Shown here piece by piece: positions 1,363 through 31,231 of a stretch of 32,000 bases of DNA. Every line of letters starts with the position of its first letter. Within the stretch, counting starts at the first letter, position 1. Under the pieces are notes generated by a model that saw only the letters and a list, made by a program, of their open reading frames with translations, did no database searches and was not told the DNA's origin. Both the position numbers and the translations under genes were made by a program. The DNA comes from Candidatus Baldrarchaeota archaeon (GTDB taxonomy: Archaea > Asgardarchaeota > Baldrarchaeia > Baldrarchaeales > DXJG01), in contig DXJG01000009.1 in NCBI GenBank assembly GCA_019056805.1, positions 306,769 to 338,768 on the forward strand, read 5' to 3'.

Positions 1363-2382
1363 TCAAACTGCAGCTTTCTGTATCTTTTTAAGTCCTCTCA
1401 TGGCTACTATGTATGCTGATGTTGTATGAACGTCTAGTCCCAAATCTCCCGCTATTATCTTAGCACTTATTGATGAGTATGCTGGATTAACCTTTATTAA
1501 CTCTCCTTCAACCTTGGGGACTAAAACCTCCATCTGTTGTGTAAACTCCCTTAAAGCCATCTTTGAAATCTTCCTCTTAGCAGTCTTATTACCTTTAGGT
1601 TTTGGTTTAGACAATCTTTCAATAACATAGTATTTTACGCCGTGCTCTCTAGCATACTTCACAAGCTTAGTAAGGGATTCTCTCCTTAAAGAAACCGCCT
1701 TCTCCCTTGGAAATCCATGAGATGTAATCTCCATAAAATGCTCGTTTCTAACGTCTCTCATAATTCCCTGTCTATCAATTATCACCATATTTATCCTATC
1801 TGGGTTAAAGTCAAAGCCGGCAATATGTTCAGTAATCTTCGTCTTTGATTCTTTCCTCATATATTTAACGTAGAGTTCTAGTGGAATATTTATGTAGAGG
1901 ATTAATTTACTGTCTTTTGTACATATACCCGCTCCATAAGATATGTTGGAATTCGTCAATTCTTGAATTATCGGTATGTGTTTCCTTCCAAACTTTACTT
2001 TAGCTTTTAACCATCTATGTTTCCCAGTAGCTGAAGGTATTTTAATTAGCACGATTTCAGTCGACATTAACCTTATGTTTCTATTACCTTTCTCAGCTTT
2101 AACACCAACCGAATATAATTGTGGTTTCTTAAGTTTGAGATACGGTTGCTCACTATACAGTTTTGCCCTTATGTATGCTGAACGCGAGTACCATTTATTG
2201 TTAAGTATTCTTGACGTTAACAGCTTGATTATTTTGTTTTCTTTTAATCCTTTCTTCAACAGTGAATGAGCATAGTCAACAGCATCTTTAAAGTTCCTCA
2301 TAACGTATAGTAAAAAGGCTTTATCCTCTGCTGAGCTGAGAACGAGCTTTCCCTTAATTGTAGGTCTCACTTCTTTTCCCAC
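1363..2382 (-). CDS. tnpB: TnpB-family protein, atypical (no C-terminal Zn finger, His at the RuvC-III position)
   Basis: RuvC-I-like AGFDFN, RuvC-II-like YVIERL, VNPAYSS followed directly by LGLDVHTTSAYIVAMRG with no CxxC pairs. Basic 339-aa protein with a GTG start. Confidence 0.8.
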   Translation of the reverse strand: MGKEVRPTIKGKLVLSSAEDKAFLLYVMRNFKDAVDYAHSLLKKGLKENKIIKLLTSRILNNKWYSRSAYIRAKLYSEQPYLKLKKPQLYSVGVKAEKGNRNIRLMSTEIVLIKIPSATGKHRWLKAKVKFGRKHIPIIQELTNSNISYGAGICTKDSKLILYINIPLELYVKYMRKESKTKITEHIAGFDFNPDRINMVIIDRQGIMRDVRNEHFMEITSHGFPREKAVSLRRESLTKLVKYAREHGVKYYVIERLSKPKPKGNKTAKRKISKMALREFTQQMEVLVPKVEGELIKVNPAYSSISAKIIAGDLGLDVHTTSAYIVAMRGLKKIQKAAV

Positions 2383-2525
2383 TTCTCGACCACCATCCTA
2401 CCATTCTTCTCATCATAGTAAACTACGAGCTTATCCTTTGGTTTAAGATCCCACTTCTCGGCAATCTCCTTAGGTATGGTCATCTTCATTTTGGGTAAAA
2501 CCCTATATACCCCTATTAACTCCAT
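2367..2525 (-). CDS. AbrB/MazE/SpoVT-family DNA-binding protein, 52 aa (overlaps tnpB start by 16 nt)
   Basis: Hand translation: MELIGVYRVLPKMKMTIPKEIAEKWDLKPKDKLVVYYDEKNGRMVVEKWEKK, matching the xxIPKxxxxxxxLKxxDxL swapped-hairpin pattern. GGTGA at 2530-2534 precedes the ATG. Confidence 0.8.
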   Translation of the reverse strand: MELIGVYRVLPKMKMTIPKEIAEKWDLKPKDKLVVYYDEKNGRMVVEKWEKK

Positions 2526-2557
2526 GGTATCACCAGAAATATTTATAAACCACTGAG

Positions 2558-2565
2558 TATATAAA
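2558..2565. promoter_or_regulatory. Archaeal TATA box, possibly bidirectional (TTTATATA on - for abrB-tnpB; TATATAAA on + for the ncRNA candidate)
   Basis: TATA consensus with an A-rich BRE-like tract on the minus strand. It lies 23 nt before the GGTGA of abrB and about 17 nt before the start of the GC-rich structure on the plus strand. Confidence 0.5.
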
Positions 2566-2581
2566 AATTTTTAAGCATCGA

Positions 2582-2712
2582 CCCCTATGAAGAAGGCGAG
2601 GGGGATGAGCACAGATGAACCCAGATTCGATGATGGGAGTGCTGAATTAGCGTGTAGGTGCTCCTTCAGTCGGGTCTGGGCGACTCACACCCGTGATGAG
2701 ACACTCTGTGTC
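2582..2712 (+). ncRNA. Candidate structured non-coding RNA with k-loop/k-turn motifs (family unidentified)
   Basis: 73/131 nt are G+C (56%) in an AT-rich window. K-loop CCCC-UAU-GA-AGAAGGC-GA-GGGG at 2582-2603; 11-bp stem 2620-2630/2670-2680; 7-bp stem 2636-2642/2658-2664; UGAG/CUCA 2606-2609/2684-2687; hairpin GACAC-UCU-GUGUC 2700-2712. G-U wobble pairs work only on the + strand. Confidence 0.7.
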
Positions 2713-2730
2713 AAAAGATATTAAAAGATA
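2713..2730. repeat. Tandem 8-bp direct repeat AAAAGATA-tt-AAAAGATA (possible operator)
   Basis: Two exact copies at 10-bp periodicity, about 60 nt upstream of the RHH gene. The operator role is inference. Confidence 0.3.
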
Positions 2731-2792
2731 CGGGGTGGTTGAACGGCATTAGCTTTTTATTGATTGTTGAGAATTTATTGTGGGGAATTGTT

Positions 2793-2978
2793 ATGAGTAA
2801 GGTAAAATATGTAAATATTTCTATCCCTAAGCCTTTATATGAACGTTTAGAAAAAGCTTTAAAGGACTCTGGCTATAGGAGTCCGACTGAATATATCATT
2901 TTCCTTATCAGGAAACATCTCGCTGACCTTGAGTCTGATGATCTCGATCGTAGATTAAAGGCCCTCGGCTACAAATAA
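2793..2978 (+). CDS. Ribbon-helix-helix (CopG-like) transcriptional regulator, 61 aa
   Basis: MSKVKYVNISIPKPLYERLEKALKDSGYRSPTEYIIFLIRK... shows an alternating beta-strand plus helix-G-helix RHH pattern and ends in RLKALGY. ATG at 2793 preferred over the track's TTG at 2739. Confidence 0.8.
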   Translation: MSKVKYVNISIPKPLYERLEKALKDSGYRSPTEYIIFLIRKHLADLESDDLDRRLKALGYK

Positions 2979-3081
2979 AATATCTGAAATTTATTAAAAT
3001 TCTACTTTTGTTAGTGTTTGGAGAAAGATGAAGTTTACTGTTCTGTTTTTAGACTTGTAGAAAGAGGAATAGTGAGTATTA

Positions 3082-3525
3082 TTATTCTTCACTACGAAAT
3101 AGTATTGTCAAGGCTCCAGCAGCGGTGCCTATTGCAGCTATTAGAAGATGGAGAAAATATGTCTGAAATATTATTAAACAAATTACAATTACCAGAGTAG
3201 CGGTTAAACTACCTCCCAATGTAAATTTTTTAAGTTTTGGTTGCTGCTTAAACCAGGTCCAGCCGTTTTTTAGTGAAATTTTGAGTTGATGAAAACCAAG
3301 GAGAATTAGATTAATAAGAAGACGAGTGAAATCAAATAGTATGGACCCTCCGATGACAACGGCTTTATCGGTGCGTGGCGGGTTTGTGTACAAGTTTCTT
3401 GCTCCACATTTTTCACATTCTATGTATAAATAACCATTGCTACCGTAACCCCTAAGTAGAGTATAACCTTCCCAACCACATTCTTTACATTTTACATAGT
3501 AGCAACTTTTAGTACGCTTATCCAT
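3082..3525 (-). CDS. Hypothetical membrane protein with N-terminal Zn ribbon
   Basis: CKECG...CEKCG followed by 2-3 hydrophobic segments. GAGGT RBS precedes the ATG at 3525 (147 aa). Confidence 0.65.
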   Translation of the reverse strand: MDKRTKSCYYVKCKECGWEGYTLLRGYGSNGYLYIECEKCGARNLYTNPPRTDKAVVIGGSILFDFTRLLINLILLGFHQLKISLKNGWTWFKQQPKLKKFTLGGSLTATLVIVICLIIFQTYFLHLLIAAIGTAAGALTILFRSEE

Positions 3526-3763
3526 ATTTTTAACCTCAATTAACATTCTAAGCCCATTAACTATTTAAATCAATTGGATTTAACCATAAATCATTTATAA
3601 ATAATCATCATAGAAGATGATTATAACTAAAATCCATCGACAAAATATTTTAATACTATCAGTCGGGGGAAATTCTCTCTTCCATAAGGATGAGAATGAA
3701 AATAACTTTCATATATTTCTGCTGCGATACTATAATAAAATACTATAAAGGGATCAATAATAC

Positions 3764-3879
3764 ATGTCAAAATTCGGAAGTTTGAGGAGAATAGTTATAC
3801 CAAAATCGATCTGCAAAAGACTCTTGTTATCAAGGAAAGTTATAAGGTAGAGGTTATATTTGAGAAGGTAGATGAATAA
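3764..3879 (+). pseudogene. Frameshifted AbrB/MazE/SpoVT-like gene, stop overlapping tnpB start (TAATG)
   Basis: Frame 1 from ATG 3764 reads MSKFGSLRRIVIPKSICKRL. A second frame from 3823 reads LVIKESYKVEVIFEKVDE* (TAA 3877-3879). Joined, they give a typical AbrB pattern; the shift is at CTCT around 3821-3824. Confidence 0.65.
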
Positions 3880-5081
3880 TGCTTCTTAGCTACCGATTTC
3901 GCATATATCCTTCAAAAACGATCCAAGCTAAGCTGAATGAGCAACTTGAGATATGTAGATGGCTCTATAACCGACTATTAGAAGAAGTTAACAAGGCAAG
4001 AAAAGAAGGAAGGAAAATCAATAGGCAAGATACACAAGCCCTTATTGTAAAGCTCAAAGAGGAGAAGCCAGAACTAAACAAAGTTTACTCTAAGGTTTTG
4101 CAAATGGTGAACTATCAGCTATGGTCAAACATTAAGACTTTAGCTGAATTGAAGCGAAAAGGAAAGAAAACTGGAACGCTAAGGTATAAAACTGGAAACT
4201 CATTCAAAACTCTGAATTTTAATCAATCAGGCTTTAAAATCGATTTTAAACGAAGGAAACTCGTCTTGTCCAAGGTTGGTGAGATTCCAATCAAGTTACA
4301 CAGAAAAATTGAAGGAAAAATCAAAGGAGTTATAATCAAGAGGACAAAATCTGAAAAGTGGTTTGCACTCGTTCAACTCGAAGTTGTAGATGAAACGATA
4401 CCAAAAACTGGAAGGGTCATTGGTATCGATATGGGAGTTCATCACTTCGCTACCGATTCAGATGGCAATCGTTTCGAAAACCCAAAGTTTCTAGATAAAA
4501 CAATAGAGAAGATAAGGAAAATCCAAAAAGTGCTATCAAGAAAACAGAAAGGTTCAAAGAATAGAGAAAAGGCTAGAAAGAGACTGGCTAAGCTTTACGA
4601 AAAATTAGAAAATCAGAGAAACGATTTCCTTCACAAACTTTCCCGCTACTACATCAACAACTACGATGTTGTCTGCATTGAGGATTTAGATATTAAGAGT
4701 TTGGTTGAAAATAACAGATCCCACACTTTGAACCGTCACATTTTGGATGCTTCTTGGTCAAAGTTCATTCAACTACTCTTCTATAAGGCTGAAAGAGCTA
4801 ATAGAAGAGTAGTTAAGGTAAATCCAAAAAATACATCAAGAATATGTGCTAGATGTGGTAAGATTATCAAGATTGAATTAAAGGACAGATTATTTGTTTG
4901 TCCTTATTGCAGTTGGGAGGCGGACAGAGATTATAATGCCTCCCTGAACATTCTGAATGCGGGGCTGGGACGGCCCTTAGCGCCTGTGGAGAGAGAACCT
5001 CTACTCCGTATCGTTTCTTATTGGGAAGTAATTACGGGGCAAGTTCTCTCAATGAAGCAGGAAGCCCCTTGCGTCAGCTAG
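3879..5081 (+). CDS. tnpB: IS200/IS605-family RNA-guided endonuclease TnpB (canonical, HTH_OrfB type), 400 aa
   Basis: N-terminal YRFRIYP/HTH region, RuvC-I GIDMG, RuvC-II CIEDL, Zn finger CARC...CPYC, RuvC-III ADRDYNA. Catalytic D/E/D intact. Confidence 0.95.
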   Translation: MLLSYRFRIYPSKTIQAKLNEQLEICRWLYNRLLEEVNKARKEGRKINRQDTQALIVKLKEEKPELNKVYSKVLQMVNYQLWSNIKTLAELKRKGKKTGTLRYKTGNSFKTLNFNQSGFKIDFKRRKLVLSKVGEIPIKLHRKIEGKIKGVIIKRTKSEKWFALVQLEVVDETIPKTGRVIGIDMGVHHFATDSDGNRFENPKFLDKTIEKIRKIQKVLSRKQKGSKNREKARKRLAKLYEKLENQRNDFLHKLSRYYINNYDVVCIEDLDIKSLVENNRSHTLNRHILDASWSKFIQLLFYKAERANRRVVKVNPKNTSRICARCGKIIKIELKDRLFVCPYCSWEADRDYNASLNILNAGLGRPLAPVEREPLLRIVSYWEVITGQVLSMKQEAPCVS

Positions 5082-5108
5082 GGGTAGTTCACCTACTTAA
5101 GCCATAAG
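4959..5108 (+). ncRNA. Predicted reRNA/omegaRNA of the IS605-type TnpB (scaffold to 5092, guide from 5093)
   Basis: GC-rich stems overlap the tnpB 3' end: GGGC/GCCC at about 4962-4976, GAGAGAAC 4991-4998 with GTTCTCTC 5043-5050, plus the terminal hairpin. Boundaries are inferred from known TnpB reRNA layout. Confidence 0.7.
5061..5092 (+). mobile_element. IS200/IS605 right end (subterminal hairpin and TCAC cleavage site)
   Basis: GAAG-CCCCT-T-GC-GTCA-GC-T-AGGGG-TAGT-TCAC. The guide tetramer GAAG and cleavage site TCAC fit the IS608-type guide/cleavage-site pairing scheme. The left end was not located. Confidence 0.8.
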
Positions 5109-5221
5109 TGACAAATATTATCATGACATTTATATATCTACATGTATTGTATTAACGTGTCTAAATATAAAATAAGGAGAAATACGATGTAAGAACTCCG
5201 AGAGTAACCTGAGGGGACTAC

Positions 5222-6310
5222 ATGAGAAAGCCAACAATATCTTTGATTATTCCCACGTATAATGAAAAAGAAAACCTACCAGTGCTCGTAAGAAGAATTC
5301 ACGAATCGTTATCTAACTATTGTGACTACGAAATTATCGTTGTTGATGACGATAGCCCCGATGAAACCTGGAAAGTTGCACAAGAACTATCAAAACAATA
5401 CCCAGTACGAGTAATCAGACGCGAGGGAAAACTAGGATTATCCTCCGCAGTAATCGAAGGATTCAAACAAGCACGCGGAGAACTCCTCGGCGTAATGGAC
5501 GCAGACCTACAACACCCACCAGAAATACTCCCAAACTTAATAGAAGAAATAAAAAACGGCAAAGACATCGTAGTAGCAAGTAGATACGTCAAAGGAGGAA
5601 AAATAGAAAACTGGGGACTAAAACGAAAAATAGTATCCAAAGGAGCCAGATTTCTAACAAAAGTCCTAGTTCCACAAGCAAGAAGCATAAAAGACCCCCT
5701 CTCAGGCTACTTCATTCTCAGAAGAGAAGTAGTTGAAGAAGCAGAGTTAAATCCAGTCGGATACAAAATCCTCCTAGAAATCTTAGTAAAAGGAAGCTAC
5801 GAAGAGGTAGCGGAAGTCCCCTTCACTTTTGGAACAAGAGAGATGGGGAAAAGCAAATTAACGGTAGGCGAGTACACTAACTTTTTAAGACATTTATATA
5901 GACTTTCAGAAACTGTAGGAGAAGTCGTAAAATTAGTTAGATACATGGTAATAAGTGTACTATCATTATTTGTAAATGTCTTTTTCTTTCTTGCTTTAAC
6001 AAACTATCTCAACCTTCACTACTTGTACTCCTCTATTCTAAGTTTAGAAGCCATGATACTATTCAGTTTTGTCTTAAGCGAAATGTGGATCTCAAAAAAC
6101 AGAAAAATTAAGAAACCAACTAGCGCCGTGTTGAGAGCTGTAAAATATAACATGTTATGCTTGGGAGGTTTACTAATAAACATTGGCATTCTATGGCTAT
6201 TTACAAATGTTTTCAACGTCTACTATCTCATCTCAAACTTCTTCGGCGCAACCGGGGCGGTCATATGGAACTATGCAATGAACGTTTGGTTAACATGGAA
6301 AACACGGTAG
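5222..6310 (+). CDS. Dolichol-phosphate glycosyltransferase (GT2, DPM1-like) with C-terminal GtrA-like membrane domain
   Basis: IIPTYNE, VVDDDSPD, GLSSAV, VMDADLQHPPE, VVASRY and DPLSGYF motifs, followed by four hydrophobic helices. Confidence 0.92.
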   Translation: MRKPTISLIIPTYNEKENLPVLVRRIHESLSNYCDYEIIVVDDDSPDETWKVAQELSKQYPVRVIRREGKLGLSSAVIEGFKQARGELLGVMDADLQHPPEILPNLIEEIKNGKDIVVASRYVKGGKIENWGLKRKIVSKGARFLTKVLVPQARSIKDPLSGYFILRREVVEEAELNPVGYKILLEILVKGSYEEVAEVPFTFGTREMGKSKLTVGEYTNFLRHLYRLSETVGEVVKLVRYMVISVLSLFVNVFFFLALTNYLNLHYLYSSILSLEAMILFSFVLSEMWISKNRKIKKPTSAVLRAVKYNMLCLGGLLINIGILWLFTNVFNVYYLISNFFGATGAVIWNYAMNVWLTWKTR

Positions 6311-6744
6311 TAGCAACTAAATTACTAAGTAGAAAATAACTTCTAAGTGTTTACTTCTTAGTTAGAAATTAGCGATTAAGTAAAATACACCCACTGTTTC
6401 ACTTAGAATTTTTACCTTGTACATTAAACAATTGTGAAGCAAGTCATTTTACGTTGAAGGGAAAGACCACTTATTCAAATACAAAGTACATGAGAATGAA
6501 GTGATTTAGCTATAACTTGAAACTTCTAGGATGAAAAGCAAAGTAGTTCCGTCAAAAAACATTTCTAAAACAAAACCAAATGTACTATCATATTCAGAAC
6601 CCATTTTCATTCGATGTTTCATCTTTTTAAACAAAACATTTAACAAAACATATAAAATAATACCTTTTAAACCTACAAACTTAATAATATGTAATGTTTT
6701 CGACACCCTTTTAATCGTTTAACTCTACTTTGGAGTGACAGGCA

Positions 6745-9921: not shown

Positions 9922-10051
9922 AAAGGCTTATCATTAAATGGTCTCGGAGAGTTACATTTTGAGATAAAGAGATAATAACTAAAAGTATCAACAAAAATTT
10001 ATCAAAAGATAACCATTAGAAACATATCTATTTCAGGAGGAAAAGTCGGAG

Positions 10052-16666: not shown

Positions 16667-16676
16667 TAGCTAAACA

Positions 16677-19123: not shown

Positions 19124-19174
19124 TTTGCTTAATAATTTAAAGAAGAAAGTAAAGCAAATGGGGTAAGATGATAG

Positions 19175-22807: not shown

Positions 22808-22873
22808 AGTGCCACAACCTCAGTTGTTACTATAATAAATAGCTAAGAACCATAATAATTTTATTTTCCTGAA

Positions 22874-23197: not shown

Positions 23198-23485
23198 ACT
23201 ATGTCAATCCTCCTAAATTATATTTAACATAAATTTTTAAACAGTTCTATTTATTAGTATTAACAAATCTAATTCTTCATCCAAATTAGTTTCCTATCCG
23301 CGGACGCTTTCCAGATACACATATTTCATGGTATACAATAGATCTAGAAGCCAAAACAGAGATAAACCTACATCATCAAACATGGATAAGTCGCTGTCGA
23401 ATGACTCAAACCCCTTTTAATAACATTACACCTAAAATAAAGATCTATAGTAATAACACATATACCAAAGATTTCTAAATTTTCT

Positions 23486-24523
23486 TTATTGAGTACAACT
23501 GAAGTATTTACACTTTTTCACTACTACACTAAAACTGAATTTGAAAGTCTTATTAAAAATTCCTGTTAAGCATCCAACTATTCTTGCAAAATCTAAGATT
23601 AATATAATGATAGGAACTAAATGTAAAACCTTAAAATTTCTTAACTGTTTATTCTTTACTAGAGGTACCAATAAGTATCCTAAAATACAAATCAAAAGTG
23701 CTATCCAAATTTGTGGATATACAAATCCCAATATCAGCATTAATCCTCCAAGTGTATATCGTATAAAGAGTAGTCTGTAATTAAATAATAAACCTGCCTC
23801 ACCATTTCCTTTAGCATATAAATAATGTTGTTTAAAGACAGCTCTTAAATTTGGTCTTACTCTCCAATAAACTACAGCATGTGGTGCAAAAGCAAACTTG
23901 CAACCTGCTTTTTTTAAATTCAAGTCAAATAAAGTATCTTCAGCGGTATATAACCATTCAGGGTATCCACCAACTTTTTCCCAGCATTTTTTCTTAAATG
24001 CTACTGATCTACTTGACGGTAAAAACTTATCTGGATTTTTTAACACGTTTTCCAATTTTGGATAAGTTAATTCAGCTACACATTTCTCGAATTCGGTCCT
24101 TGCGTCGGCTTCGTACCATCCCGCCACTACATCCACGCTTGGATCTTCCTCAAATGGTCTAACTAAATTTTTCAGCCAGTCTTTATCTAATCGGCATCCG
24201 GCATCTGTTGATGCGATTATGTCATACTCTGCATTTTTGATAGCAATATTTCTTCCCTCTGCGATGTTTACACCGTTTTTAACAATTAATTTTATTGGAG
24301 CACCTTTTTCAATATAAGATTTTATAATTTCAACAGTTCTGTCTATAGACCCACCATCAACAATAATGATTTCATCTGGCGGTCTTGATTGAGATAATAA
24401 TGAGTCTAAGAATTCTTTAATGGAGGATTCTTCATTTTTTAGCGTGCAGATTAACGAAACTTTTATGTCTTTTATTTCTCCACACCCCACAATTTGAGAT
24501 ACGTGTTTGCAACCTTTTCCCAT
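23486..24523 (-). CDS. GT2 glycosyltransferase with C-terminal TM helices
   Basis: TLKNEE, IVDGGSID, STDAGC, GGYPE and AEDTLF motifs. The true start may be GTG at 24490. Confidence 0.9.
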   Translation of the reverse strand: MGKGCKHVSQIVGCGEIKDIKVSLICTLKNEESSIKEFLDSLLSQSRPPDEIIIVDGGSIDRTVEIIKSYIEKGAPIKLIVKNGVNIAEGRNIAIKNAEYDIIASTDAGCRLDKDWLKNLVRPFEEDPSVDVVAGWYEADARTEFEKCVAELTYPKLENVLKNPDKFLPSSRSVAFKKKCWEKVGGYPEWLYTAEDTLFDLNLKKAGCKFAFAPHAVVYWRVRPNLRAVFKQHYLYAKGNGEAGLLFNYRLLFIRYTLGGLMLILGFVYPQIWIALLICILGYLLVPLVKNKQLRNFKVLHLVPIIILILDFARIVGCLTGIFNKTFKFSFSVVVKKCKYFSCTQ

Positions 24524-26376
24524 GTCTGTTCTTTTGCGAAACGATATGCGTTTTTAATTTTTTCTTCCGCTTTTTTCGGATTTTTATAGTAGTACACAAT
24601 TTTCTCTGCTAATTCTTTAGGAGATGACACTATAATCATCATGTCCTTTGAATTTGGGATTAAAGTTAAATAATCTTTTTTTAACTCATTTTCAAACACG
24701 CTGAACACCAATCTTTTATTAATCATCGCTTCTAATATCGCAAGATACCCAGAAACAAAAGCAAATTTACCTTTTATCAAGTAATCAATTGGATTCTCAA
24801 CAAAACCATGAAGTCTAATATTTAATTTATTTTCTCTTATGATCTTTTCAATAATTTCTCGCAGACTTCCATCCCCACAAACATCCACCTCAAGATTAAT
24901 ATTGTATTTCCTTTTTAGAATTTTAACAGCGCTTATGTACGTCAAAATTCCTGTATCTCTTTCTAACCTTCCAATAAAAACTGCAGAGATTTTAGAATTC
25001 ATAATATTACCTGTATGTTTTGGTTCATCTACACCGCCGTACACAACAAAATTAGGTTTTGTACCATACCATTTTGCAATAAAACCACCAACGCAAATAT
25101 TTCCGTTTGTTAACCTCTCAGCAATTTTTCTCATTATTTTTTTTGTTCTTGGGATTGGCAATGACCCTTCATGACCATGAAATGTAATATATACTGGTTT
25201 TAACGGATACAAAAATCTAAAGGGTAGATACCAAAAAATGAAAGTGTGAGAATCGTGACAATGAATAATATCTGCATTTTTAATGAGATTTCTATGTCTA
25301 AACACCCAAAACCATATATTTAACAATCTTTTTTTAGGGAATCTGTAAATTTTTATTTTGTTTAGCTGTTCGAATTCTGGTAAATTTTGGTCGTGCTTTA
25401 CAGTAACTATTGTGACTTTGTGCTTTTTCTTAATCAACTCTTCGGATAATCGTTGTACATGCCTTTCTACACCACCTATATGTGGATAGAAAAATGGGGC
25501 AAACATCAGGACTTTCTTATTTGATTTTTTTTTACATTGGATTAGTAAGTTAGCAGGTTTAAATCTGCTAGGAAATAACCTAGATAATAATGGCGAAAAA
25601 TATGCAGTTCTGGATGCAGGCCAAATTTTTTTAACTTTTTTTATCAAAAATCCAGCTAATTTTAATTCGGAGAGAACGAGTTTTGGAGTATAAGAGCGGA
25701 CATGCCCGTTTGGATTTATTAAAGAGTTACATACTGGGCATTTGAAAGTATAAGCTTCAAGATTTTCGTAAAGAGGTACGGACACTATAAGTACACCAGA
25801 ATTTTTTAATACTCTTCGTACCTCGTTTAGTACTCCAAACAAATTTGTTGCAGGAATATGTTCTAATATCTCTAGTAGGAGAACTACATCAAAAGAGTTA
25901 TCTGGCCACGGGAGATTTTCAGCCGAACCAACGCGGAAGTCGCCATCAAGTTTTTGTTTAATGTTCTGGATCGCTTTACTAGAAATATCTATCCCAGCTA
26001 AAGATAGATGAGGAAACTTTTTATGTAGCTCTTCTATCACAAAACCGTATCCAACACCAATATCGAGAACATTAGATGCAGTAGATGGAAATAGTTTAAT
26101 GGTTTCTCTTATTCTTTTCTGGGTTGTCTTATTTTCTTCCTCTACTGATTTATGATATTCGACATAAAAATTCCACATATCAGCGGAATTTATATCCTTC
26201 AAAGATGCAAAATCTTGAGAATACGTCTTTTTTAAATTTATTAAATCTGATTTTTCGGCTAGCTTTTGTCTCAGTTTTTCTACTTTGAATGGGTTGCCCT
26301 TGCAAGAATCACAAATTAACCCCTCAGAAATTTCTCCAAGACTTTTTGAGCCACAGATCATACAATAATTTGGCAT
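24472..26376 (-). CDS. Fusion of class I SAM-dependent methyltransferase and GT4 glycosyltransferase
   Basis: N-terminal CMIC...CDSC; methyltransferase motifs VLDIGVGYG, GIDIS, LPWPDNSFDVV and EILEHI; then GT4 motifs IGGVERHV, IHCHD and FIGRLERDTG. Confidence 0.88.
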   Translation of the reverse strand: MPNYCMICGSKSLGEISEGLICDSCKGNPFKVEKLRQKLAEKSDLINLKKTYSQDFASLKDINSADMWNFYVEYHKSVEEENKTTQKRIRETIKLFPSTASNVLDIGVGYGFVIEELHKKFPHLSLAGIDISSKAIQNIKQKLDGDFRVGSAENLPWPDNSFDVVLLLEILEHIPATNLFGVLNEVRRVLKNSGVLIVSVPLYENLEAYTFKCPVCNSLINPNGHVRSYTPKLVLSELKLAGFLIKKVKKIWPASRTAYFSPLLSRLFPSRFKPANLLIQCKKKSNKKVLMFAPFFYPHIGGVERHVQRLSEELIKKKHKVTIVTVKHDQNLPEFEQLNKIKIYRFPKKRLLNIWFWVFRHRNLIKNADIIHCHDSHTFIFWYLPFRFLYPLKPVYITFHGHEGSLPIPRTKKIMRKIAERLTNGNICVGGFIAKWYGTKPNFVVYGGVDEPKHTGNIMNSKISAVFIGRLERDTGILTYISAVKILKRKYNINLEVDVCGDGSLREIIEKIIRENKLNIRLHGFVENPIDYLIKGKFAFVSGYLAILEAMINKRLVFSVFENELKKDYLTLIPNSKDMMIIVSSPKELAEKIVYYYKNPKKAEEKIKNAYRFAKEQTWEKVANTYLKLWGVEK

Positions 26377-26380
26377 CTCA

Positions 26381-27577
26381 TCACCTCAATAGCTTTACTA
26401 GAAAGTTATTATTCAGTTTTGCTCTTTTTTTTAAATAAGCCATTTTTTCTTTTATTTCTTTTTTATATCTTTTTCGGCATATCCATAACGCTGATAATTT
26501 ATATAGTAATTCTTCAATATTAATATCTTCATTTTTCCTATGTATTCCTTCACCAATACCAACAGCCCACTTCTTTTGCCCAATTTGTTCCAAAAAACAC
26601 TCAACTTTGTGGTGGTACATAATTCCAAGTACTGGTACGTTCATTCTTGTAGCAAGAATAAGTGAGTGTAATCTCATTCCGATAATCATGTCCATTCGAC
26701 CAATAATACCCATCATTTCTTGTGGAGTATATTCTCCAGTAATAATTTTGACTCTGTCCTTGTTTTCTACATTTTTTATCAACTCGGATGCAAAGTCCCT
26801 ATCTGTTGGGATTTGCATTGGTATAAAAATAACATTTGCATCTAGTTTCGAAATGATGAAATCTACTACCTTTGGCCATACATTTTTAAATTTTAAGAAT
26901 TTCTTCTGTTGATTTGGCCAATATTTCTGAATGTGAAATATTGGCGATATTGCTATCCCAACTAAAGGTTTACTGGAATCTATACGTTCTTCTTTCAATA
27001 TTTTACTTATTCTATCAGGTTTTACTGGTTCTAGTAGAATTGCTGGATCTGCCGTAACGTATATCCTTTTTTTCACACCTGCACTTTCTAGCCACTCTTT
27101 AGATTTTTCGTCACGTACAGTGATTATGTCAGCACATCTGTTAAGAATTATTCTCGTTAAGAACCTGCCAATTTTGGTTATTATTGGCCCAGCACCAATA
27201 GCATAAAGCATAACTTTTTTACCAAACATTTTTGCTAACATAACTTGTCCTAACCATTGTAAAATAACAGTCCAAGATTGCCAGTCACTTAGAAAACCAC
27301 CACCACCAAGAATAAACACGTCAGACGTTCTAATAGCATTAACAGTCTCAAAAAGTCTTTTACGCAAGGCTAATGAACACAAAGATAAAATATCAAAATA
27401 CATTAACGGAACAGCCACCACATCATGAACTTTTGAGGTGTATGCAGGGTCGCTCGATAAAACGATAATTTCAACATCTTTAAATTCATCCCTTATTGTT
27501 TTTATCATTGACGCTAAAATCACCTCATCACCCGTGTTTTTATAACCATACCAACCTGAAATAACGATTCTGAACAC
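26381..27577 (-). CDS. Polysaccharide pyruvyl transferase family protein (CsaB-like)
   Basis: SGWYGYKNTGDE, ILGGGGFL, AIGAGP, TVRDEKS, TADPA and IGMRLHSLI motifs. GTG start. Confidence 0.9.
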   Translation of the reverse strand: MFRIVISGWYGYKNTGDEVILASMIKTIRDEFKDVEIIVLSSDPAYTSKVHDVVAVPLMYFDILSLCSLALRKRLFETVNAIRTSDVFILGGGGFLSDWQSWTVILQWLGQVMLAKMFGKKVMLYAIGAGPIITKIGRFLTRIILNRCADIITVRDEKSKEWLESAGVKKRIYVTADPAILLEPVKPDRISKILKEERIDSSKPLVGIAISPIFHIQKYWPNQQKKFLKFKNVWPKVVDFIISKLDANVIFIPMQIPTDRDFASELIKNVENKDRVKIITGEYTPQEMMGIIGRMDMIIGMRLHSLILATRMNVPVLGIMYHHKVECFLEQIGQKKWAVGIGEGIHRKNEDINIEELLYKLSALWICRKRYKKEIKEKMAYLKKRAKLNNNFLVKLLR

Positions 27578-27898
27578 AGTTTACACCCTACGTTTTTATT
27601 TTACAATGTATATCCAAAGTAGAAATAACAACCAAAAAATTTATCTCTTATTACCTAAGTAACAAGACTAAAAAGAAGAGAACAATACCAAAATTTTAAA
27701 AATTAAAAACAATAACTAACAAAATATACTTCAAAGAATGCCCCAAAACTTCTTCAACTTCTTCTATCATCCAAATCAAACTTCGAAAAAGCAGAAAAAC
27801 AAAGTCATAGAAATCAGAACCCTAAACACCAAGCATATTTTCACTTTAAGGATAAATTTTATGAGTATGAAATCCTGTAAAAATCTAAGTGATCAAAG

Positions 27899-29413
27899 AT
27901 GTCTTCTGACGGTAAATCTGGGTCAGTGGGTTTTTCCAAAGTTGTTCGTAGTAGTTTCTGGATCTATGCAACCAGCTTTGTAAATAATGCATTTGGTTTC
28001 ATATTTTGGCTTTCAATTTCTTTCATCGTAGGACCCTCTATCGTCGGTATCCTCAGTGCAATTTCCAGTCTAGCTAATCTCTTTGCTTACGTTCTTAGTC
28101 TTGGGATTCCTGTTGGGCTTACCCGCTGGCTTGGCCATTCCATTGGCAGCGGTAAAACTGTTGAAGCTAAAAAATTCTTCTGGTCTGGATCACTCTTTCT
28201 AATCACCTTAATCGTACCTGTTTCATTGACATTGGGCTTTATGGGCTACATTGGTTTAGGTTTCAGCAGATATAACTCCCTCACGCTAATTTTCATTTCT
28301 ATATTTCTAATATTTAGTTTAAATGTCATTTTAATTTCTCTCTATATGGGATTTATGAAAACTTTCCCCTACTTCCTTTCCACACTAATCGGTCAAATTC
28401 TAAGGATTGTTGTTGGTATTCTTCTAGTTTTAATAGGATTTGGATGGGTTGGTGCCGCCATCGGATATTTAATGGTTTCTATCATTACAACCTTAATAGG
28501 AATATTTTATATCGCTAAACTGATCGGCTTTACTCCGTCCTTCTCTACAAAACACCTTCTAAAACTCTTAAAAGCAGGAATTCCAAGCTGGATCCCAGGA
28601 ATGATAGTGATTATCGGACAACAATTAGCAGTTATTAGTGTTTTTATAATGGTTGGTGCAGCCGAAACTGGAACCTTCTACATAGCATTTACAATTGGAA
28701 GCTTTGTCATCGGCATAGCCTTGGCAGTTCAGCGGATGATGCTTCCCTACCTAAGCGGATTAACTGACGGTAGAAAAAGAGCTGCTTGGAACTCATTGAG
28801 AGTAGGATTAGCATTCACAATGCCCCTAGTTATCGGAGTCGGTTTATTCCCCGAATATATCCTCGGTTTATTAGGACCAAGTTATGCAAAGGCTTGGCTT
28901 GAACTTGAAATAATTATGTCCTCCTCCCTACTACTCGTTTTCATCTCTGCAGTTAATAATCTCTGCTATGCCTACGAGAAATACTACTACGTCTTTCTCA
29001 TAGGACTCGTCACGAGCATTCCCAGACTAATCCTCTATATCATCCTAACGCCTATCTGGGGTTCTACTGGTACTGCATTATCCTTTGCCATAGGTAGTGT
29101 CACAGGAATCTTTACCGCTCTAATAATCGCCCCAAAAGTTGGCCTAAATTTCAACTGGCAAACACTGACCTCGATTTTCATCACCTCTTTAGCAATTGGA
29201 ACTCCTCTCGGCCTCCTATTCAAACTTTTTATTCCAAAACTTTGGATCATAGGCCTCAGCATAACTATTATTTTAAACTATATCATCCTCATGAAAATTA
29301 AAATCATAACAAAATTCGATATTATTGAGATAGGTAAAGCAATAATTCCAAAGAAATATCAACCAACAATTTACGACCTGGCAAAACCATTAATCGACCT
29401 AATATACGGATAA
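27899..29413 (+). CDS. Oligosaccharide flippase (Wzx/RfbX, MOP superfamily)
   Basis: About 14 TM helices with LSLGIPVGLTRW, GFGWVGAAIG and GAAETGTFYIA. Located in the glycan cluster. Confidence 0.85.
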   Translation: MSSDGKSGSVGFSKVVRSSFWIYATSFVNNAFGFIFWLSISFIVGPSIVGILSAISSLANLFAYVLSLGIPVGLTRWLGHSIGSGKTVEAKKFFWSGSLFLITLIVPVSLTLGFMGYIGLGFSRYNSLTLIFISIFLIFSLNVILISLYMGFMKTFPYFLSTLIGQILRIVVGILLVLIGFGWVGAAIGYLMVSIITTLIGIFYIAKLIGFTPSFSTKHLLKLLKAGIPSWIPGMIVIIGQQLAVISVFIMVGAAETGTFYIAFTIGSFVIGIALAVQRMMLPYLSGLTDGRKRAAWNSLRVGLAFTMPLVIGVGLFPEYILGLLGPSYAKAWLELEIIMSSSLLLVFISAVNNLCYAYEKYYYVFLIGLVTSIPRLILYIILTPIWGSTGTALSFAIGSVTGIFTALIIAPKVGLNFNWQTLTSIFITSLAIGTPLGLLFKLFIPKLWIIGLSITIILNYIILMKIKIITKFDIIEIGKAIIPKKYQPTIYDLAKPLIDLIYG

Positions 29414-29503
29414 ATACCATTTGCTAAATTCTATGTCTTTAGGAACTTTTTTATCTTTAAACCTAAAAAATCAACCATCCATAAATCAATTAGGTGCTGT
29501 TAT

Positions 29504-29891
29504 ATGAAGCCAAGTAAAGATACTGTACCTTATAGCGGCATTCAAACCTTCCTCGGCCGACCATTTATTGAAAAACCCAAAGGAGACGAAGATGTCGTTG
29601 TAGTAGGTGTGCCCCTCGATGCAGGAACATCCTACATGCCCGGTGCAAGATTCGGACCAGCCGGCATTAGAAGAGCATCAATGACCTACAAATTCTACGA
29701 TGAAAACCAAGGACTCCTAGACACCTCCCACGAGAAAATTATTCTAAAAAACATAAAAATAGTTGACTTAGGAGACATGAACCTACCCTTCGGAGACCAA
29801 AAAACACAATGAACACCATATACAAGAAAGCCCTAGAACTCAAAGGACTAAAAGCATTTAGAATATTCCTAGGAGGCCACTCAATAACCTA
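29504..29891 (+). pseudogene. speB: Agmatinase/ureohydrolase pseudogene, 5' part
   Basis: GVPLDAGTSYMPGARFGPAGIRRAS and DLGD motifs. One-base loss in the A6 run near 29798-29805 shifts the frame. GGDHSITY is reduced to GGHSITY, then cut by the tnpB element. Confidence 0.85.
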
Positions 29892-29990
29892 CCGTTCTAG
29901 GAGACTTGACATTTTATGGTGTTTTGTCTCCTTTCCTCCCTCTGTTTTCATTGGGAGGCTTTCGGCGGGAACGGGGCTCGCCACATCTAT
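29875..29990 (-). ncRNA. Predicted reRNA of the third TnpB (scaffold to 29892, guide from 29891 downward)
   Basis: Hairpins CCTCCC/GGGAGG (29935-29958) and GGAGAC/GTCTCC (29900-29931) overlap the tnpB 3' end. Boundaries are inferred. Confidence 0.6.
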
Positions 29991-31064
29991 CTGTTTTAAA
30001 CCTCTTAACCTAATATTCCATGCTCCAATAATATCTCTATCAGCAATTAATCCACATCTTTTACATTTCAGAATTCTATGCCCATTCGGGCTTAATTTTG
30101 CCCCACATATCGGGCATAAAGAACTTGTACCACGGGCATTAACATAAATTATGGGAACTCCATTCAATTTTGCCTTATATTCTATGATTAATTGAAGTTT
30201 TCTAAAACTCCACCTATGCAACCTACCATTCATTTTCTTTGAGTATTTTATCTTCTTTCTAATGTTTTTAAGATTTTCCAATGTTATCGCTGAACCCGTT
30301 TCTAAAGCTTCTTCAACAATCCAATTTGCAGCCTTATGATAAATATCCAGTATTCTATTTCTCTCTCTTCCAGAATATTTGACCAATAACTTTCTCCTAG
30401 TTTTTCCAACTTTAATTTTAGATTGTATTTTTCTACGCTTAAGGAAATAAACAGTTCTAATAACTTTCTCTCTCGTAACCTTCTTCCCGAAACCATTTAG
30501 CTTAGCTATTGTAACATTATTTTCATTAACATCAACGCCAATAACATCAATTGGCTTTTCAACCTCAATATCTTTTGAGAAAACAACATTCAAAAACAAC
30601 TCATAATCCTTCTTTATCAACCATGCTTGTCCAACCTTCCAATCCCTAAACCTCTCATGATATTTTCTGTGAATTAACTTTAACTTAACTCTTCCATTAG
30701 GAGTAGCTATACTAACAAACAAATTGTTCAAATTAAGAGAGAACAGTTTTTCATCGAGCATTATAACGTCTTTCTTAAATTGAGGTTTATCTCCCTTAGC
30801 TTTACCTTTACGCTTAAGCTTCCTAAACGATTTATAGATTGAACAAGCCATTTGACAAGCTGTGTAAATGTAATGTGAAGGTAGGTTAGGATATTTTTCT
30901 CTAAGTTCATAATATCTTTCTGCTTTAAGCTTTTTAAAAGAAGATATATTTTTAAATGAAGCATAGTCCAATAACTCATTTACAATCTGCTTATATAAAC
31001 TGAATATATCGGGAATTTCTCCATCAAGCTTGAAGCTTGCAGTAAGCTTAACGAATTCCCTCAT
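29889..31064 (-). CDS. tnpB: TnpB RNA-guided endonuclease, 391 aa
   Basis: RuvC-I GVDVNE, RuvC-II TLENL, Zn finger CPIC...CKRC and RuvC-III ADRDIIG are intact. The TAG stop is supplied by flanking host DNA. Confidence 0.92.
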   Translation of the reverse strand: MREFVKLTASFKLDGEIPDIFSLYKQIVNELLDYASFKNISSFKKLKAERYYELREKYPNLPSHYIYTACQMACSIYKSFRKLKRKGKAKGDKPQFKKDVIMLDEKLFSLNLNNLFVSIATPNGRVKLKLIHRKYHERFRDWKVGQAWLIKKDYELFLNVVFSKDIEVEKPIDVIGVDVNENNVTIAKLNGFGKKVTREKVIRTVYFLKRRKIQSKIKVGKTRRKLLVKYSGRERNRILDIYHKAANWIVEEALETGSAITLENLKNIRKKIKYSKKMNGRLHRWSFRKLQLIIEYKAKLNGVPIIYVNARGTSSLCPICGAKLSPNGHRILKCKRCGLIADRDIIGAWNIRLRGLKQIDVASPVPAESLPMKTEGGKETKHHKMSSLLER

Positions 31065-31188
31065 TTCCCCTTCCCCAATAATAATTACCCTTTACTTTAT
31101 CATCGATCTTTAACCCTAAAGATTCTCTAACATTCTTTGGAATAACAATTCTAAACTGCGATTTAACAACCGTTGAAAACTTCTCCAT
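31048..31188 (-). CDS. AbrB/MazE/SpoVT-family protein, 46 aa (overlaps tnpB start by 17 nt)
   Basis: Hand translation: MEKFSTVVKSQFRIVIPKNVRESLGLKIDDKVKGNYYWGRGNEGIR, with RIVIPKxVRExLGLKxxDKV as a textbook AbrB core. GGTGA at 31198-31202. Confidence 0.78.
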   Translation of the reverse strand: MEKFSTVVKSQFRIVIPKNVRESLGLKIDDKVKGNYYWGRGNEGIR

Positions 31189-31223
31189 CGCCACATCTCA
31201 CCATAAAATAATAAAAACAACAG

Positions 31224-31231
31224 TATATAAA
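31224..31231 (-). promoter_or_regulatory. Archaeal TATA box for abrB-tnpB
   Basis: TTTATATA preceded by purine-rich CAGAAG, 21 nt before GGTGA. Confidence 0.55.

What the first reader, a model, noticed from the sequence alone, without database searches (positions are those of the whole stretch)
1363..31231. Three unrelated tnpB genes each carry an overlapping upstream AbrB-type gene in place of tnpA
Seen: small ORFs at 2367-2525(-), 3764-3879(+, frameshifted) and 31048-31188(-) share the pattern [IM]xIPKx[IV]xxx[LW]x[LI]Kxx[DY]K[VL]. They overlap their tnpB starts by 16 nt, 1 nt (TAATG) and 17 nt. No Y1 or serine-recombinase tnpA is present in the window. The three TnpBs differ strongly (Zn-less His type, HTH_OrfB IS605 type, IS607-like), so this is not one element copied three times. 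Established: AbrB/MazE/SpoVT folds act as repressors or antitoxins, and TnpB is an RNA-guided nuclease. Inference: a recurrent, translationally coupled abrB-tnpB module in which AbrB autoregulates or restrains TnpB, possibly acquired convergently. I cannot verify whether it has been described.
Basis: partly seen in the sequence, partly recalled or inferred. Interest (0 to 1): 0.82.

Follow-up and report, generated by a model that had tools for sequence, protein, structure and literature searches.

The report
TnpB elements carrying AbrB mini-regulator genes
Three different small jumping-gene relics in this Asgard archaeon each encode the RNA-guided nuclease TnpB and, as first gene in place of a transposase, a tiny AbrB-type DNA-binding protein that most likely turns down the element's own promoter; one pairing is published and the other two are new variants of a known theme.

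Summary
Three unrelated tnpB genes are each preceded by an overlapping AbrB/SpoVT mini-gene, and the assembly holds no transposase. Only Abr1 is intact. Abr2 has a frameshift that is identical in contigs of three other runs. Abr3 has +1 and -2 indels compared with intact 45-aa homologues.

Each pair lies inside a compact element of about 1.4 kb.
- E1 (about 1343-2747) is the published archaeal RHH/MazE-TnpB group (RuvC-III Asp to His, no zinc finger; Altae-Tran 2023). It also carries a conserved, covarying RNA gene on the opposite strand, and relatives show that it is mobile.
- E2 (about 3650-5092) is an IS605-type element.
- E3 (29892-31288) is an IS607-type element.
- In E2 and E3, abrB sits between the left end with its promoter and tnpB. 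The nearest relatives carry tnpA, an RHH gene, an HTH-only gene or nothing in that position.

The three AbrB lineages are not specially related to each other, so they look like independent recruitments.

The most likely function is autorepression of the element's promoter, as shown for Arc (an RHH protein) in bacterial IS605 (Moon 2026). This is inferred, not shown. An antitoxin role is less likely.

This scan noted the same architectures earlier on other DNA. Verdict: a new variant of a known kind, of moderate interest.

The parts
1343..2747 (-). Element E1 (about 1.4 kb): RIIIr-4/SSO2105-type tnpB, abrB and an opposite-strand RNA gene. The end at 1343 is approximate.
   Evidence: Relatives L179 and L180 share 1468 bp at 96.6% identity in two different gene contexts. 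The shared block breaks sharply at the RNA's 3' motif (GAGAACGGC) and 24 nt after the tnpB stop. The window's ends were placed by the same motifs.
1363..2382 (-). tnpB1, 339 aa. It has no zinc finger. Its RuvC residues are D191, E255 and H319, with His in place of the third catalytic Asp.
   Evidence: Homologues carry PF27229 SSO2105_N. Alignments A1 and A5 show D191, E255 and H319 invariant in 102 sequences and the CxxC...CxxC segment deleted. The match to NCBIfam guided_TnpB is weak.
2367..2525 (-). abr1, intact 52-aa SpoVT/AbrB gene that overlaps the tnpB1 start.
   Evidence: PF04014 E=5e-9. It is 73-75% identical to the upstream genes of a Methanomethylicia MAG (L185) and Staphylothermus hellenicus (L061).
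2526..2573 (.). Promoter region between abr1 and the RNA gene. It holds two A/T-rich TATA-like boxes in an inverted repeat (2537-2550 and 2557-2570) and an SD-like GGTGAT before abr1.
   Evidence: Read from the sequence; inverted repeat. A palindromic TTTATAA box flanked by purine-rich stretches on both sides is aligned in all 12 loci. Its role as a promoter or operator is inferred.
2574..2747 (+). Conserved structured RNA gene on the strand opposite to abr1-tnpB1. It has repeated GAUGA (k-turn-like) motifs and ends in GAACGGC at the element boundary. It is a candidate guide (omega-like) RNA.
   Evidence: GC is 56% against a 35% genome. MFE z-score is -3.5 on the plus strand and -1.3 on the minus strand. 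In the RNAalifold consensus of 12 loci, 19 of 25 pairs have compensatory changes and several pairs are G-U on this strand only. Model R1 finds it in the relatives searched only beside tnpB1-type genes, at one contig end, or as copies without an intact abrB-tnpB1 operon beside them. No Rfam family matches.
3650..5092 (+). Element E2 (about 1.44 kb): IS200/IS605-type element without tnpA. The left boundary is approximate.
   Evidence: DNA homology to about 60 relatives ends sharply at 5092-5095. The left-end motif lies upstream of abr2.
3650..3720 (+). Degenerate left-end hairpin motif preceded by TTTAAT, followed by a TATA-like box.
   Evidence: It aligns with the TTTAAC-nnn-TCGGCGGGAAG...GATGAGAGCCGA-TTTATA motif of relatives, but the outer stem is lost here. 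In L117, L115, L135, L113, L134, L094 and L141 the same motif lies upstream of the small gene.
3727..3748 (+). Two direct ATACTATAA repeats between the TATA-like box and abr2. Candidate operator, speculative.
3764..3879 (+). abr2, a frameshifted AbrB-type gene. The N-terminal part (MSKFGSLRRIVIPKSICKRL) is in one frame and the rest (..IKESYKVEVIFEKVDE, stop) in another. It ends in a TAATG overlap with tnpB2.
   Evidence: The frameshift is identical in contigs of runs X2, X3 and X4.
3879..5081 (+). tnpB2, 400 aa, canonical TnpB with intact D/E/D residues and a C4 zinc finger.
   Evidence: PF12323, PF01385 and PF07282. NF040570 at 298 bits. Motifs GIDMG, CIEDL and DRDYNAS in A1.
4880..5092 (+). 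Omega-RNA scaffold region and right end of E2.
   Evidence: GC 55%. MFE z-score -4.65. The segment 4956-5092 keeps 72-81% DNA identity in relatives whose coding DNA is 67-70% identical.
29892..31288 (-). Element E3 (1397 bp): IS607-type element without tnpA. It starts GGGC and ends ...GAACGG.
   Evidence: The sharp common ends of L067, L068, L069 and L071 in different contexts map to these window positions.
29889..31064 (-). tnpB3, 391 aa, canonical D/E/D residues and zinc finger. The ORF runs to the element end and takes its TAG stop codon from flanking DNA.
   Evidence: It is 76-83% identical (best-segment tblastn) to the tnpB of the AbrB-bearing contigs.
31048..31194 (-). abr3, an AbrB gene with two indels (+1 near 31091-31093, -2 near 31070) that replace its C-terminus.
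   Evidence: DNA alignment A2 against intact homologues encoding a 45-aa protein that ends ..GDKIRVVIIKEEKK. PF04014 matches the N-terminal half only.
31195..31288 (-). Left end and promoter region of E3, including a TATA-like TTTATATA.
   Evidence: It is conserved with L067-L071 (A2). The 14-nt inverted repeat just upstream of the TATA box in L068 is not detectable in the window copy.

Best explanation
The window holds three different compact TnpB elements of about 1.4 kb each.

In each, the slot that a transposase gene normally fills, between the element's left end with its promoter and tnpB, is taken by a 38-52 codon SpoVT/AbrB gene. This gene is the first gene of a tightly coupled abrB-tnpB operon.
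- E1 belongs to the published archaeal RHH/MazE-TnpB group and also carries an opposite-strand structured RNA gene.
- E2 is a derivative of an IS605-type element.
- E3 is a derivative of an IS607-type element.

Most likely mechanism (inferred): the AbrB dimer or tetramer binds the element's own promoter region. It thereby holds down transcription of abrB-tnpB, of the guide RNA embedded in or next to that transcript, and, in E1, of the divergent RNA. This would be the archaeal, AbrB-fold counterpart of Arc in bacterial IS605 elements.

Shown here: the anatomy, the element ends, conservation of the pairings, independent origin of the three AbrB lineages, and the decay of two of them.

Inferred: DNA binding at the promoter and repression.

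In this genome E2 and E3 look stranded. No transposase was found in the assembly, both abrB genes are broken, and the E2 left-end stem has decayed.
For: 1. AbrB identity is supported.
2. The small gene lies inside the element.
   - In E3, copies in different contexts share sharp ends 95 nt upstream of abrB and at the end of tnpB.
   - In E2 relatives, the left-end hairpin and TATA box lie upstream of the AbrB or RHH gene, and the right end is sharp at 5092.
   - In E1, the same 1468-bp unit is found in two contexts.
3. The slot is interchangeable among unrelated DNA-binding folds in close relatives.
   - In the TnpB2 clade: 35 Y1 tnpA, 10 RHH, 25 nothing and 1 AbrB plus the window. The tree needs at least 17 changes of state.
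   - In the TnpB3 clade: serine tnpA, RHH, HTH-only and AbrB.
   - In E1: RHH-like genes and at least two AbrB types.
   This fits a generic DNA-binding role rather than a dedicated protein-protein interface.
4. The proteins consist of the DNA-binding domain only (38-52 aa; PF04014 profile positions 4-42), with no extra tail.
5. Precedent: Arc, an RHH protein encoded inside IS605 elements, binds the transposon promoter and represses it (bioRxiv 10.64898/2026.09.24.754181).
6. Inverted or direct repeats lie at the TATA boxes of E1, of the intact E3 relative and of E2. These are hints only.
Against: - No binding or expression data exist. No run recorded as RNA was found.
- The candidate operators are short, A/T-rich repeats that could arise by chance.
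- The AbrB genes of E2 and E3 type stop after the third strand (profile positions up to about 33 of 48). Whether such a shortened domain still folds and binds DNA is open.
- Two of the three abrB genes here are broken, so at least in this genome the function is dispensable.
- For E1, the published proposal is a toxin-antitoxin pair with direct inhibition of TnpB (PMC10691335). I could neither support nor exclude that.
Confidence: 0.55

Rival explanations
1. Toxin-antitoxin reading. TnpB is a toxic nuclease and AbrB is its antitoxin: it binds TnpB directly, blocks guide or target binding, and also autoregulates the operon. This was proposed for the RHH/MazE-TnpB clade by Altae-Tran et al. 2023.
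For: - The published hypothesis rests on patchy distribution and an AlphaFold co-fold of the RHH partner with TnpB (PMC10691335).
- PF04014 is the MazE antitoxin family.
- The gene overlaps suggest coupled synthesis.
- E1 shows a patchy spread: it was found in one genus among 25 Asgard genera sampled.
Against: - The small proteins have no toxin-binding extension beyond the DNA-binding domain.
- In E2 and E3 the abrB gene is broken while tnpB stays intact with full catalytic motifs. The E2 state persists unchanged in several metagenomes.
- Many sister elements with near-identical TnpB carry no small gene at all.
- Unrelated folds replace each other in front of closely related TnpBs.
- E1 behaves as a mobile element with its own RNA, not as a fixed addiction module.
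Confidence: 0.2
2. Transposition-control reading. AbrB, like the RHH and MerR-HTH-only proteins in the same slot, binds the element's end rather than, or as well as, the promoter. In this way it modulates excision or integration by a transposase supplied in trans, as an inhibitor or as an architectural cofactor.
For: - The slot lies within 60-100 nt of the left end, so promoter and end overlap physically.
- In the TnpB3 clade some relatives keep only a MerR-like HTH protein that resembles the DNA-binding N-terminus of the IS607 transposase. Such a protein could compete for the ends.
- The elements have no transposase of their own and depend on one supplied in trans.
Against: - AbrB and RHH proteins have no known role in Y1 or serine-recombinase transposition (my knowledge).
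- The same kinds of small gene occur with three mechanistically different element types, which argues for a common target such as transcription.
- There is no direct evidence.
Confidence: 0.12
3. No function. The small ORFs are decaying leftovers or chance juxtapositions of tnpB-only insertion sequences next to chromosomal abrB genes.
For: Two of the three ORFs are broken. Abr2 has no Pfam hit.
Against: - The abrB-tnpB units, with promoter and ends, are conserved as units in other organisms and in different contexts.
- Abr1-type proteins are 63-75% identical across three archaeal lineages.
- The left-end motif lies upstream of the small gene.
- The probability of three adjacencies by chance is about 1e-6.
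Confidence: 0.05

Closest known systems
RHH/MazE-TnpB group of TnpB clade RIIIr-4 (Altae-Tran et al. 2023, PNAS, PMC10691335)
   Same: E1 matches it in every respect. It is archaeal and lacks the C4 zinc finger. RuvC-III Asp is replaced by His. A small AbrB/MazE or RHH gene lies directly upstream and overlaps tnpB. Its distribution is patchy.
   Different: - The paper treats the group among non-mobile, exapted TnpBs, proposes a toxin-antitoxin pair, and expects a guide RNA in the 3' untranslated region.
- Here the 3' spacer is only about 60 nt.
- A conserved, covarying RNA gene lies upstream on the opposite strand.
- The unit has sharp ends in two contexts, and four RNA copies without an intact abrB-tnpB1 operon beside them occur in a related genome (two retain remnants of the tnpB 3' end), so it looks mobile.
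- E2 and E3 do not belong to this clade, because they have the canonical DRD motif and a zinc finger.
Arc (ribbon-helix-helix) repressors encoded inside bacterial IS605-family elements (Moon, Zedaveinyte, Wiegand, Sternberg 2026, bioRxiv 10.64898/2026.09.24.754181)
   Same: A micro-protein of about 50 aa or fewer is encoded within the IS boundaries next to tnpB and at the element's promoter. Arc has been shown to repress that promoter. The RHH genes that I find in the same slot of E2 and E3 relatives are probably direct counterparts.
   Different: - The fold differs (SpoVT/AbrB swapped hairpin, not RHH).
- The hosts are archaeal.
- The gene replaces tnpA and is co-directional and overlapping with tnpB, rather than accompanying tnpA divergently.
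- Repression is not tested here.
IS200/IS605 tnpB-only elements (IS1341 type) and IS607-family elements
   Same: - E2 has a TnpB with HTH_OrfB, OrfB_IS605 and TNB domains, a left-end hairpin motif, and a right end with a structured omega-RNA region. Its relatives carry Y1 tnpA.
- E3 has GG at both ends, and its relatives carry the serine-recombinase tnpA.
   Different: An abrB gene occupies the tnpA position. There is no transposase in the element or in the assembly. The E2 left-end stem is degenerate.
Type II toxin-antitoxin antitoxins of the MazE/AbrB fold
   Same: Same Pfam family (PF04014), small size, and the first gene of an overlapping two-gene operon.
   Different: There is no C-terminal toxin-neutralising extension. 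The partner is an RNA-guided nuclease inside a transposon. The gene is dispensable in two of the three cases here.

Membership tests
SpoVT/AbrB (PF04014) domain proteins | Profile match at or above the curated cut-off (24.7 bits) | tested here: met
   Abr1 scores 36.4 bits and Abr3 27.5 bits. The intact E3-type homologue P0122 scores 33.2 bits. Abr2 gives no Pfam hit and its relative in L117 only 19.6 bits. Abr2 is supported only by a custom HMM (E=5e-5) and 19/35 identity to L117.
SpoVT/AbrB (PF04014) domain proteins | Complete swapped-hairpin domain with four strands and a helix | tested here: inconclusive
   Abr1 covers profile positions 10-42 of 48. The E2 and E3 types, including their intact relatives, stop at about position 33, after the third strand. 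No structure was predicted.
RHH/MazE-TnpB (RIIIr-4) of Altae-Tran 2023 | RuvC-III catalytic Asp replaced by His | tested here: met
   TnpB1 has DVHTTSAY aligned to DRDYNAS, and H319 is invariant in 102 homologues. TnpB2 and TnpB3 keep DRD, so they do not meet this feature.
RHH/MazE-TnpB (RIIIr-4) of Altae-Tran 2023 | Loss of the C4 zinc finger | tested here: met
   The CxxC...CxxC segment is absent from TnpB1 and its homologues. It is present in TnpB2 and TnpB3.
RHH/MazE-TnpB (RIIIr-4) of Altae-Tran 2023 | A small AbrB/MazE or RHH gene directly upstream of tnpB | tested here: met
   Seen in the window and in all other E1-type loci examined. Several of the RHH-like genes give no Pfam hit and are called RHH-like from their sequence pattern only.
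RHH/MazE-TnpB (RIIIr-4) of Altae-Tran 2023 | Non-mobile (exapted) status, as grouped in the paper | tested here: not met
   L179 and L180 hold the same 1468-bp unit at 96.6% identity with sharp ends in different gene contexts. There are multiple copies in G001 and G003. RNA copies without an intact abrB-tnpB1 operon occur in G004.
IS200/IS605 family (E2) | TnpB with OrfB_IS605 and zinc-ribbon domains, plus a structured right end | tested here: met
IS200/IS605 family (E2) | Subterminal left-end hairpin that a Y1 transposase can use | tested here: inconclusive
   The motif is recognisable at about 3650-3705, but the outer stem (GTCGGC...GCCGAC in relatives) is lost.
IS200/IS605 family (E2) | Y1 (HUH) transposase TnpA | tested here: not met
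   There is none in the element. No PF01797 match was found in the 91%-complete assembly. Close relatives do carry it.
IS607 family (E3) | Serine-recombinase TnpA upstream of tnpB | tested here: not met
   It is replaced by abr3. No PF00239 match was found in the assembly. It is present in 13 of 28 relatives on the tree.
IS607 family (E3) | GG dinucleotide at both element ends | tested here: met
   The element starts GGGC and ends ...AACGG in the window and in L067-L069. That IS607 recombinases cross over at GG comes from my knowledge, not from a test.
Arc-type IS605 repressors (Moon 2026) | Ribbon-helix-helix fold | tested here: not met
   The window's proteins are of AbrB type. RHH genes occupy the same slot in relatives.
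Arc-type IS605 repressors (Moon 2026) | Binds and represses the transposon's own promoter | not testable with these tools
   Only the position at the promoter and short repeats are available.
Type II toxin-antitoxin module | Antitoxin with a toxin-binding region, and a toxin that is not tolerated without the antitoxin | tested here: not met
   There is no extension beyond the DNA-binding domain. Intact tnpB2 and tnpB3 coexist with broken abrB. This is indirect evidence; toxicity was not assayed.

The most novel reading that the evidence does not exclude
The opposite-strand, k-turn-rich RNA of E1 (2574-2747, plus strand) is the guide RNA of the zinc-finger-less RIIIr-4 TnpB. It would be made 'back to front' from a bidirectional promoter, with its 3' guide read from DNA beyond the element's end. 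The AbrB or RHH protein would sit on that shared promoter and set the balance between guide RNA and nuclease. More generally, archaeal TnpB elements of at least three clades would have repeatedly replaced their transposase gene by a swappable mini-repressor.
Probability: 0.3. Interest if true: 0.75.

Novelty: new variant of a known kind. Interest (0 to 1): 0.5.

Why it matters
TnpB is the ancestor of Cas12 and is being developed as a miniature genome editor, yet how its expression is kept in check in native hosts is barely known.

This window shows the same solution side by side in three unrelated TnpB lineages of an Asgard archaeon: a micro-protein of the AbrB fold as first gene of the element. 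Comparison with relatives shows that the slot is filled interchangeably by AbrB, RHH, HTH-only proteins or the transposase.

This extends the Arc/IS605 repressor idea to archaea and to a second protein fold. It weakens the toxin-antitoxin reading of such pairs.

For the published RHH/MazE-TnpB group it points to a concrete, testable RNA partner and to mobility. It also flags many unannotated genes of 38-52 codons.

Tried and rejected
- **Complex prediction.** Abr1 (two copies) with TnpB1 (alignment A5) scored 0.31 against a best control of 0.35. The tool gave no verdict, so this is not evidence either way.
- **Word-index search with read-through Abr2.** No candidates were found.
- **Pfam on read-through Abr2.** No hit.
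- **Rfam.** Nothing at gathering scores in the window. At E up to 10 there were only non-significant C/D-box sRNA matches on the RNA gene. ARAGORN found no tRNA.
- **Genome-wide adjacency of PF04014 and TnpB hits in 40 relatives.** Abandoned, because the match table is cut at 150 rows.
- **Target search for a putative guide following GAACGGC in the own genome.** Only chance matches of 13 nt or fewer.
- **Expression.** No run listed as holding this DNA is recorded as RNA.
No junction between 29886-29895 and 31270-31294 gave an open frame. Comparative data place the left end at 31288 rather than 31273.
- **My first reading of L179 and L180 as one locus in two strains.** Rejected after the flanks and gene contexts proved to differ.
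- **Literature search for SSO2105.** No papers.

Full report
**Source**

The window is contig C17:306769-338768 of a 1.92-Mb, 35%-GC assembly that is 91% complete. Its nearest named relative of the same order is Candidatus Baldrarchaeum yapensis. Locus L153 is the same stretch as L003 (G004). The organism is therefore an Asgard archaeon.

**The observation**

- Abr1 (2367-2525, minus strand, 52 aa) matches PF04014 MazE_antitoxin/SpoVT-AbrB at E=5e-9, above the cut-off. Abr3 (31048-31194, minus strand) also passes, at E=3e-6, but only over its N-terminal half. TIGR01439 agrees.
- Abr2 (3764-3879, plus strand) is split over two frames and ends in TAATG on the tnpB2 start. It has no Pfam hit. An AbrB HMM built without it ranks the read-through peptide as the best non-training hit among 36,258 six-frame ORFs, at E=5e-5. 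It is 19/35 identical to the AbrB gene that precedes a TnpB2 relative, L117.
- The comparison with L117 places the frameshift near 3822-3830. Contigs from three other runs cover that place with no difference, so it is a real allele.
- Abr3 has a +1 and a -2 indel when compared with intact homologues. These encode a 45-aa protein ending ..GDKIRVVIIKEEKK and overlap tnpB by ATGA.
- So one abrB gene is intact and two are broken.
- The genome has five full-length tnpB genes. The other two lack a small gene upstream. PF04014 gives 8 matches in the genome. Three adjacencies out of five would be about a 1e-6 event by chance, assuming about 2000 genes (my estimate).
- No Y1 transposase or resolvase domain is found anywhere in the assembly.

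**E1 (about 1343-2747)**

- TnpB1 has no hit in the local Pfam copy, but its homologues carry PF27229 SSO2105_N.
- Alignments show RuvC-I D191 and RuvC-II E255, His319 in place of the RuvC-III Asp, and deletion of the zinc finger. All three residues are invariant in 102 sequences.
- These are the defining features of clade RIIIr-4 and its RHH/MazE-TnpB group (Altae-Tran 2023, PMC10691335).
- All 12 other E1-type loci examined carry a small overlapping upstream gene. It is the Abr1 type in Staphylothermus and a Methanomethylicia MAG. It is another AbrB type in two loci of the same genus. Elsewhere it is RHH-like by sequence pattern.

Two points go beyond the paper.

First, a GC-rich stretch upstream of abr1 is conserved at DNA level in distant archaea.
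- It folds much better on the strand opposite to tnpB1: z-scores of -3.5 against -1.3, and alifold energies of -32 against -10.
- Nineteen of 25 consensus pairs show compensatory changes, and several pairs are G-U on that strand only.
- It carries repeated GAUGA motifs and ends in GAACGGC.
- A covariance model finds it once in this genome. In G001 and G003 it lies next to a tnpB1-type gene each time. In G002 it lies at a contig end. In G004 there are four copies without an intact abrB-tnpB1 operon beside them, two of which retain remnants of the tnpB 3' end.

Second, L179 and L180 hold the same 1468-bp unit in two different gene contexts. The unit breaks exactly after GAACGGC on one side and 24 nt after the tnpB stop on the other.

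E1 therefore looks like a mobile element whose RNA runs out of one end. That is the geometry expected of a guide RNA, but on the unexpected side and strand. This last step is inference.

**E2 (about 3650-5092)**

- TnpB2 is a canonical TnpB.
- DNA homology to some 60 metagenomic relatives starts at the tnpB start and stops sharply at 5092-5095. The last 135 nt are more conserved than the coding DNA and are strongly structured, with z=-4.65.
- Upstream, relatives share a left-end motif (TTTAAC, a GC-rich hairpin, then a TATA box). In those that carry an AbrB or RHH gene, the motif lies upstream of that gene. The window keeps a degenerate copy at about 3650-3720.
- Among 71 relatives with enough sequence, the gene upstream of tnpB is a Y1 tnpA in 35, an RHH gene in 10, AbrB in 1 and nothing in 25.
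- On a TnpB tree these states change at least 17 times. The window and L117 are not sisters, and L117 pairs with a tnpA-bearing element with SH-aLRT support of 95.

**E3 (29892-31288)**

- The closest relatives of tnpB3 (76-83% best-segment identity) are five metagenome contigs. In them an identical 45-aa AbrB precedes tnpB.
- Three of these contigs (L067-L069) are 92-95% identical in DNA over the shared unit, have different flanking genes, and have sharp common ends (GGGC... and ...GAACGG). These ends map to 31288 and 29892 in the window. The tnpB3 ORF takes its stop codon from the flank.
- More distant relatives carry the IS607 serine recombinase, an RHH gene or a MerR-like HTH-only gene.
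- The AbrB-bearing elements plus one HTH-only element form a supported clade nested among tnpA-bearing ones.

**Are the three AbrBs related?**

- Within each element type they are well conserved: 63-75% identity for E1, 73% for E3 and 54% for E2.
- Between types they are no closer to each other than to unrelated AbrB genes of the same genome.

**Function**

- The proteins are bare DNA-binding domains placed right behind the element's promoter.
- The slot accepts unrelated DNA-binding folds.
- Many sister elements do without any such gene.
- Here two abrB genes are broken beside intact tnpB genes.
- Together with the demonstration that the RHH protein Arc binds and represses the promoter of bacterial IS605 elements, autorepression is the best-supported mechanism. 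A classical antitoxin role is less likely, though not excluded for E1. The complex prediction gave no verdict.

**Earlier notes of this scan**

Other agents reported the same two architectures on other genomes: an AbrB mini-gene in the tnpA slot, and Zn-less TnpB with an opposite-strand RNA in a mobile unit. First-stage notes flagged the RNA and the E3 insertion on this window. One of these notes led me to re-test L179 and L180, and that changed my reading to mobility. I could not reproduce the proposed empty-site reconstruction for E3.

**Verdict**

One pairing is already known. The other two are new variants of a known theme, a transposon-encoded mini-repressor. The RNA gene of E1 is the most novel item.

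Noticed in passing
window 2574-2747 (+): A conserved, covarying, k-turn-rich RNA gene lies on the strand opposite to abr1-tnpB1 and ends at the element boundary. It matches no Rfam family. It is a candidate guide RNA of the RIIIr-4 TnpB group.
   Followed up: yes
L187-L190 (G004 = Ca. Baldrarchaeum yapensis: C70:10797-10996, C63:5263-5458, C68:36686-36884, C68:25241-25403): Four copies of the E1-type RNA have no intact abrB-tnpB1 operon beside them. Two (L187, L188) retain remnants of the tnpB 3' end (ORFs holding ..ENYLNRKLF; L188 also ..LRGLTLLKNHK..). They look like miniature deletion derivatives of the element.
   Followed up: partly
window 29892 / L067:2717 / L068:1468, and window 2741-2747: The right end of the IS607-type E3 elements and the 3' end of the E1 RNA finish with the same GAACGG motif. 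This could be coincidence or a shared guide-junction motif.
   Followed up: no
window 29504-29891 (+): An agmatinase-like gene fragment with an internal frameshift near 29805 runs up to the right end of E3 (..FLGGHSITY). No continuation is found beyond the element, and the flanking flippase-like gene on the other side (31309-31924, minus strand) is also fragmented.
   Followed up: partly
window 2790-2978 (+): A small RHH-type ORF (MSKVKYVNISIPKPLYERLEKAL...) starts about 45 nt after the 3' end of the E1 RNA. Equivalent genes are not seen at this position in other E1 loci.
   Followed up: no
L002, L009, L013, L023: In relatives, tnpB3-like genes are preceded by a MerR-like HTH-only protein of about 60 aa (..RTLWKWIKEGKIRAIKLPSGRHRIPESE..). 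It resembles the DNA-binding N-terminus of IS607 TnpA without the recombinase domain.
   Followed up: partly
L109, L110 (metagenome contigs): An RHH-like reading frame (MSKVTIKMEVDTHRKLLEIV...) appears to continue in frame into the TnpB N-terminus. This may be an RHH-TnpB fusion.
   Followed up: no
G000:C17:267063-268403 (+) and G000:C11:44285-45568 (+): Two further full-length tnpB genes of this genome have no small gene upstream and share a conserved 5' DNA motif. tnpB fragments lie at the ends of contigs C8 and C15 and inside C6.
   Followed up: partly
L179:1190-1240 against L180: A patch of about 38 nt in the loop of the main RNA hairpin is completely different between two element copies that are otherwise 96.6% identical.
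   Followed up: partly
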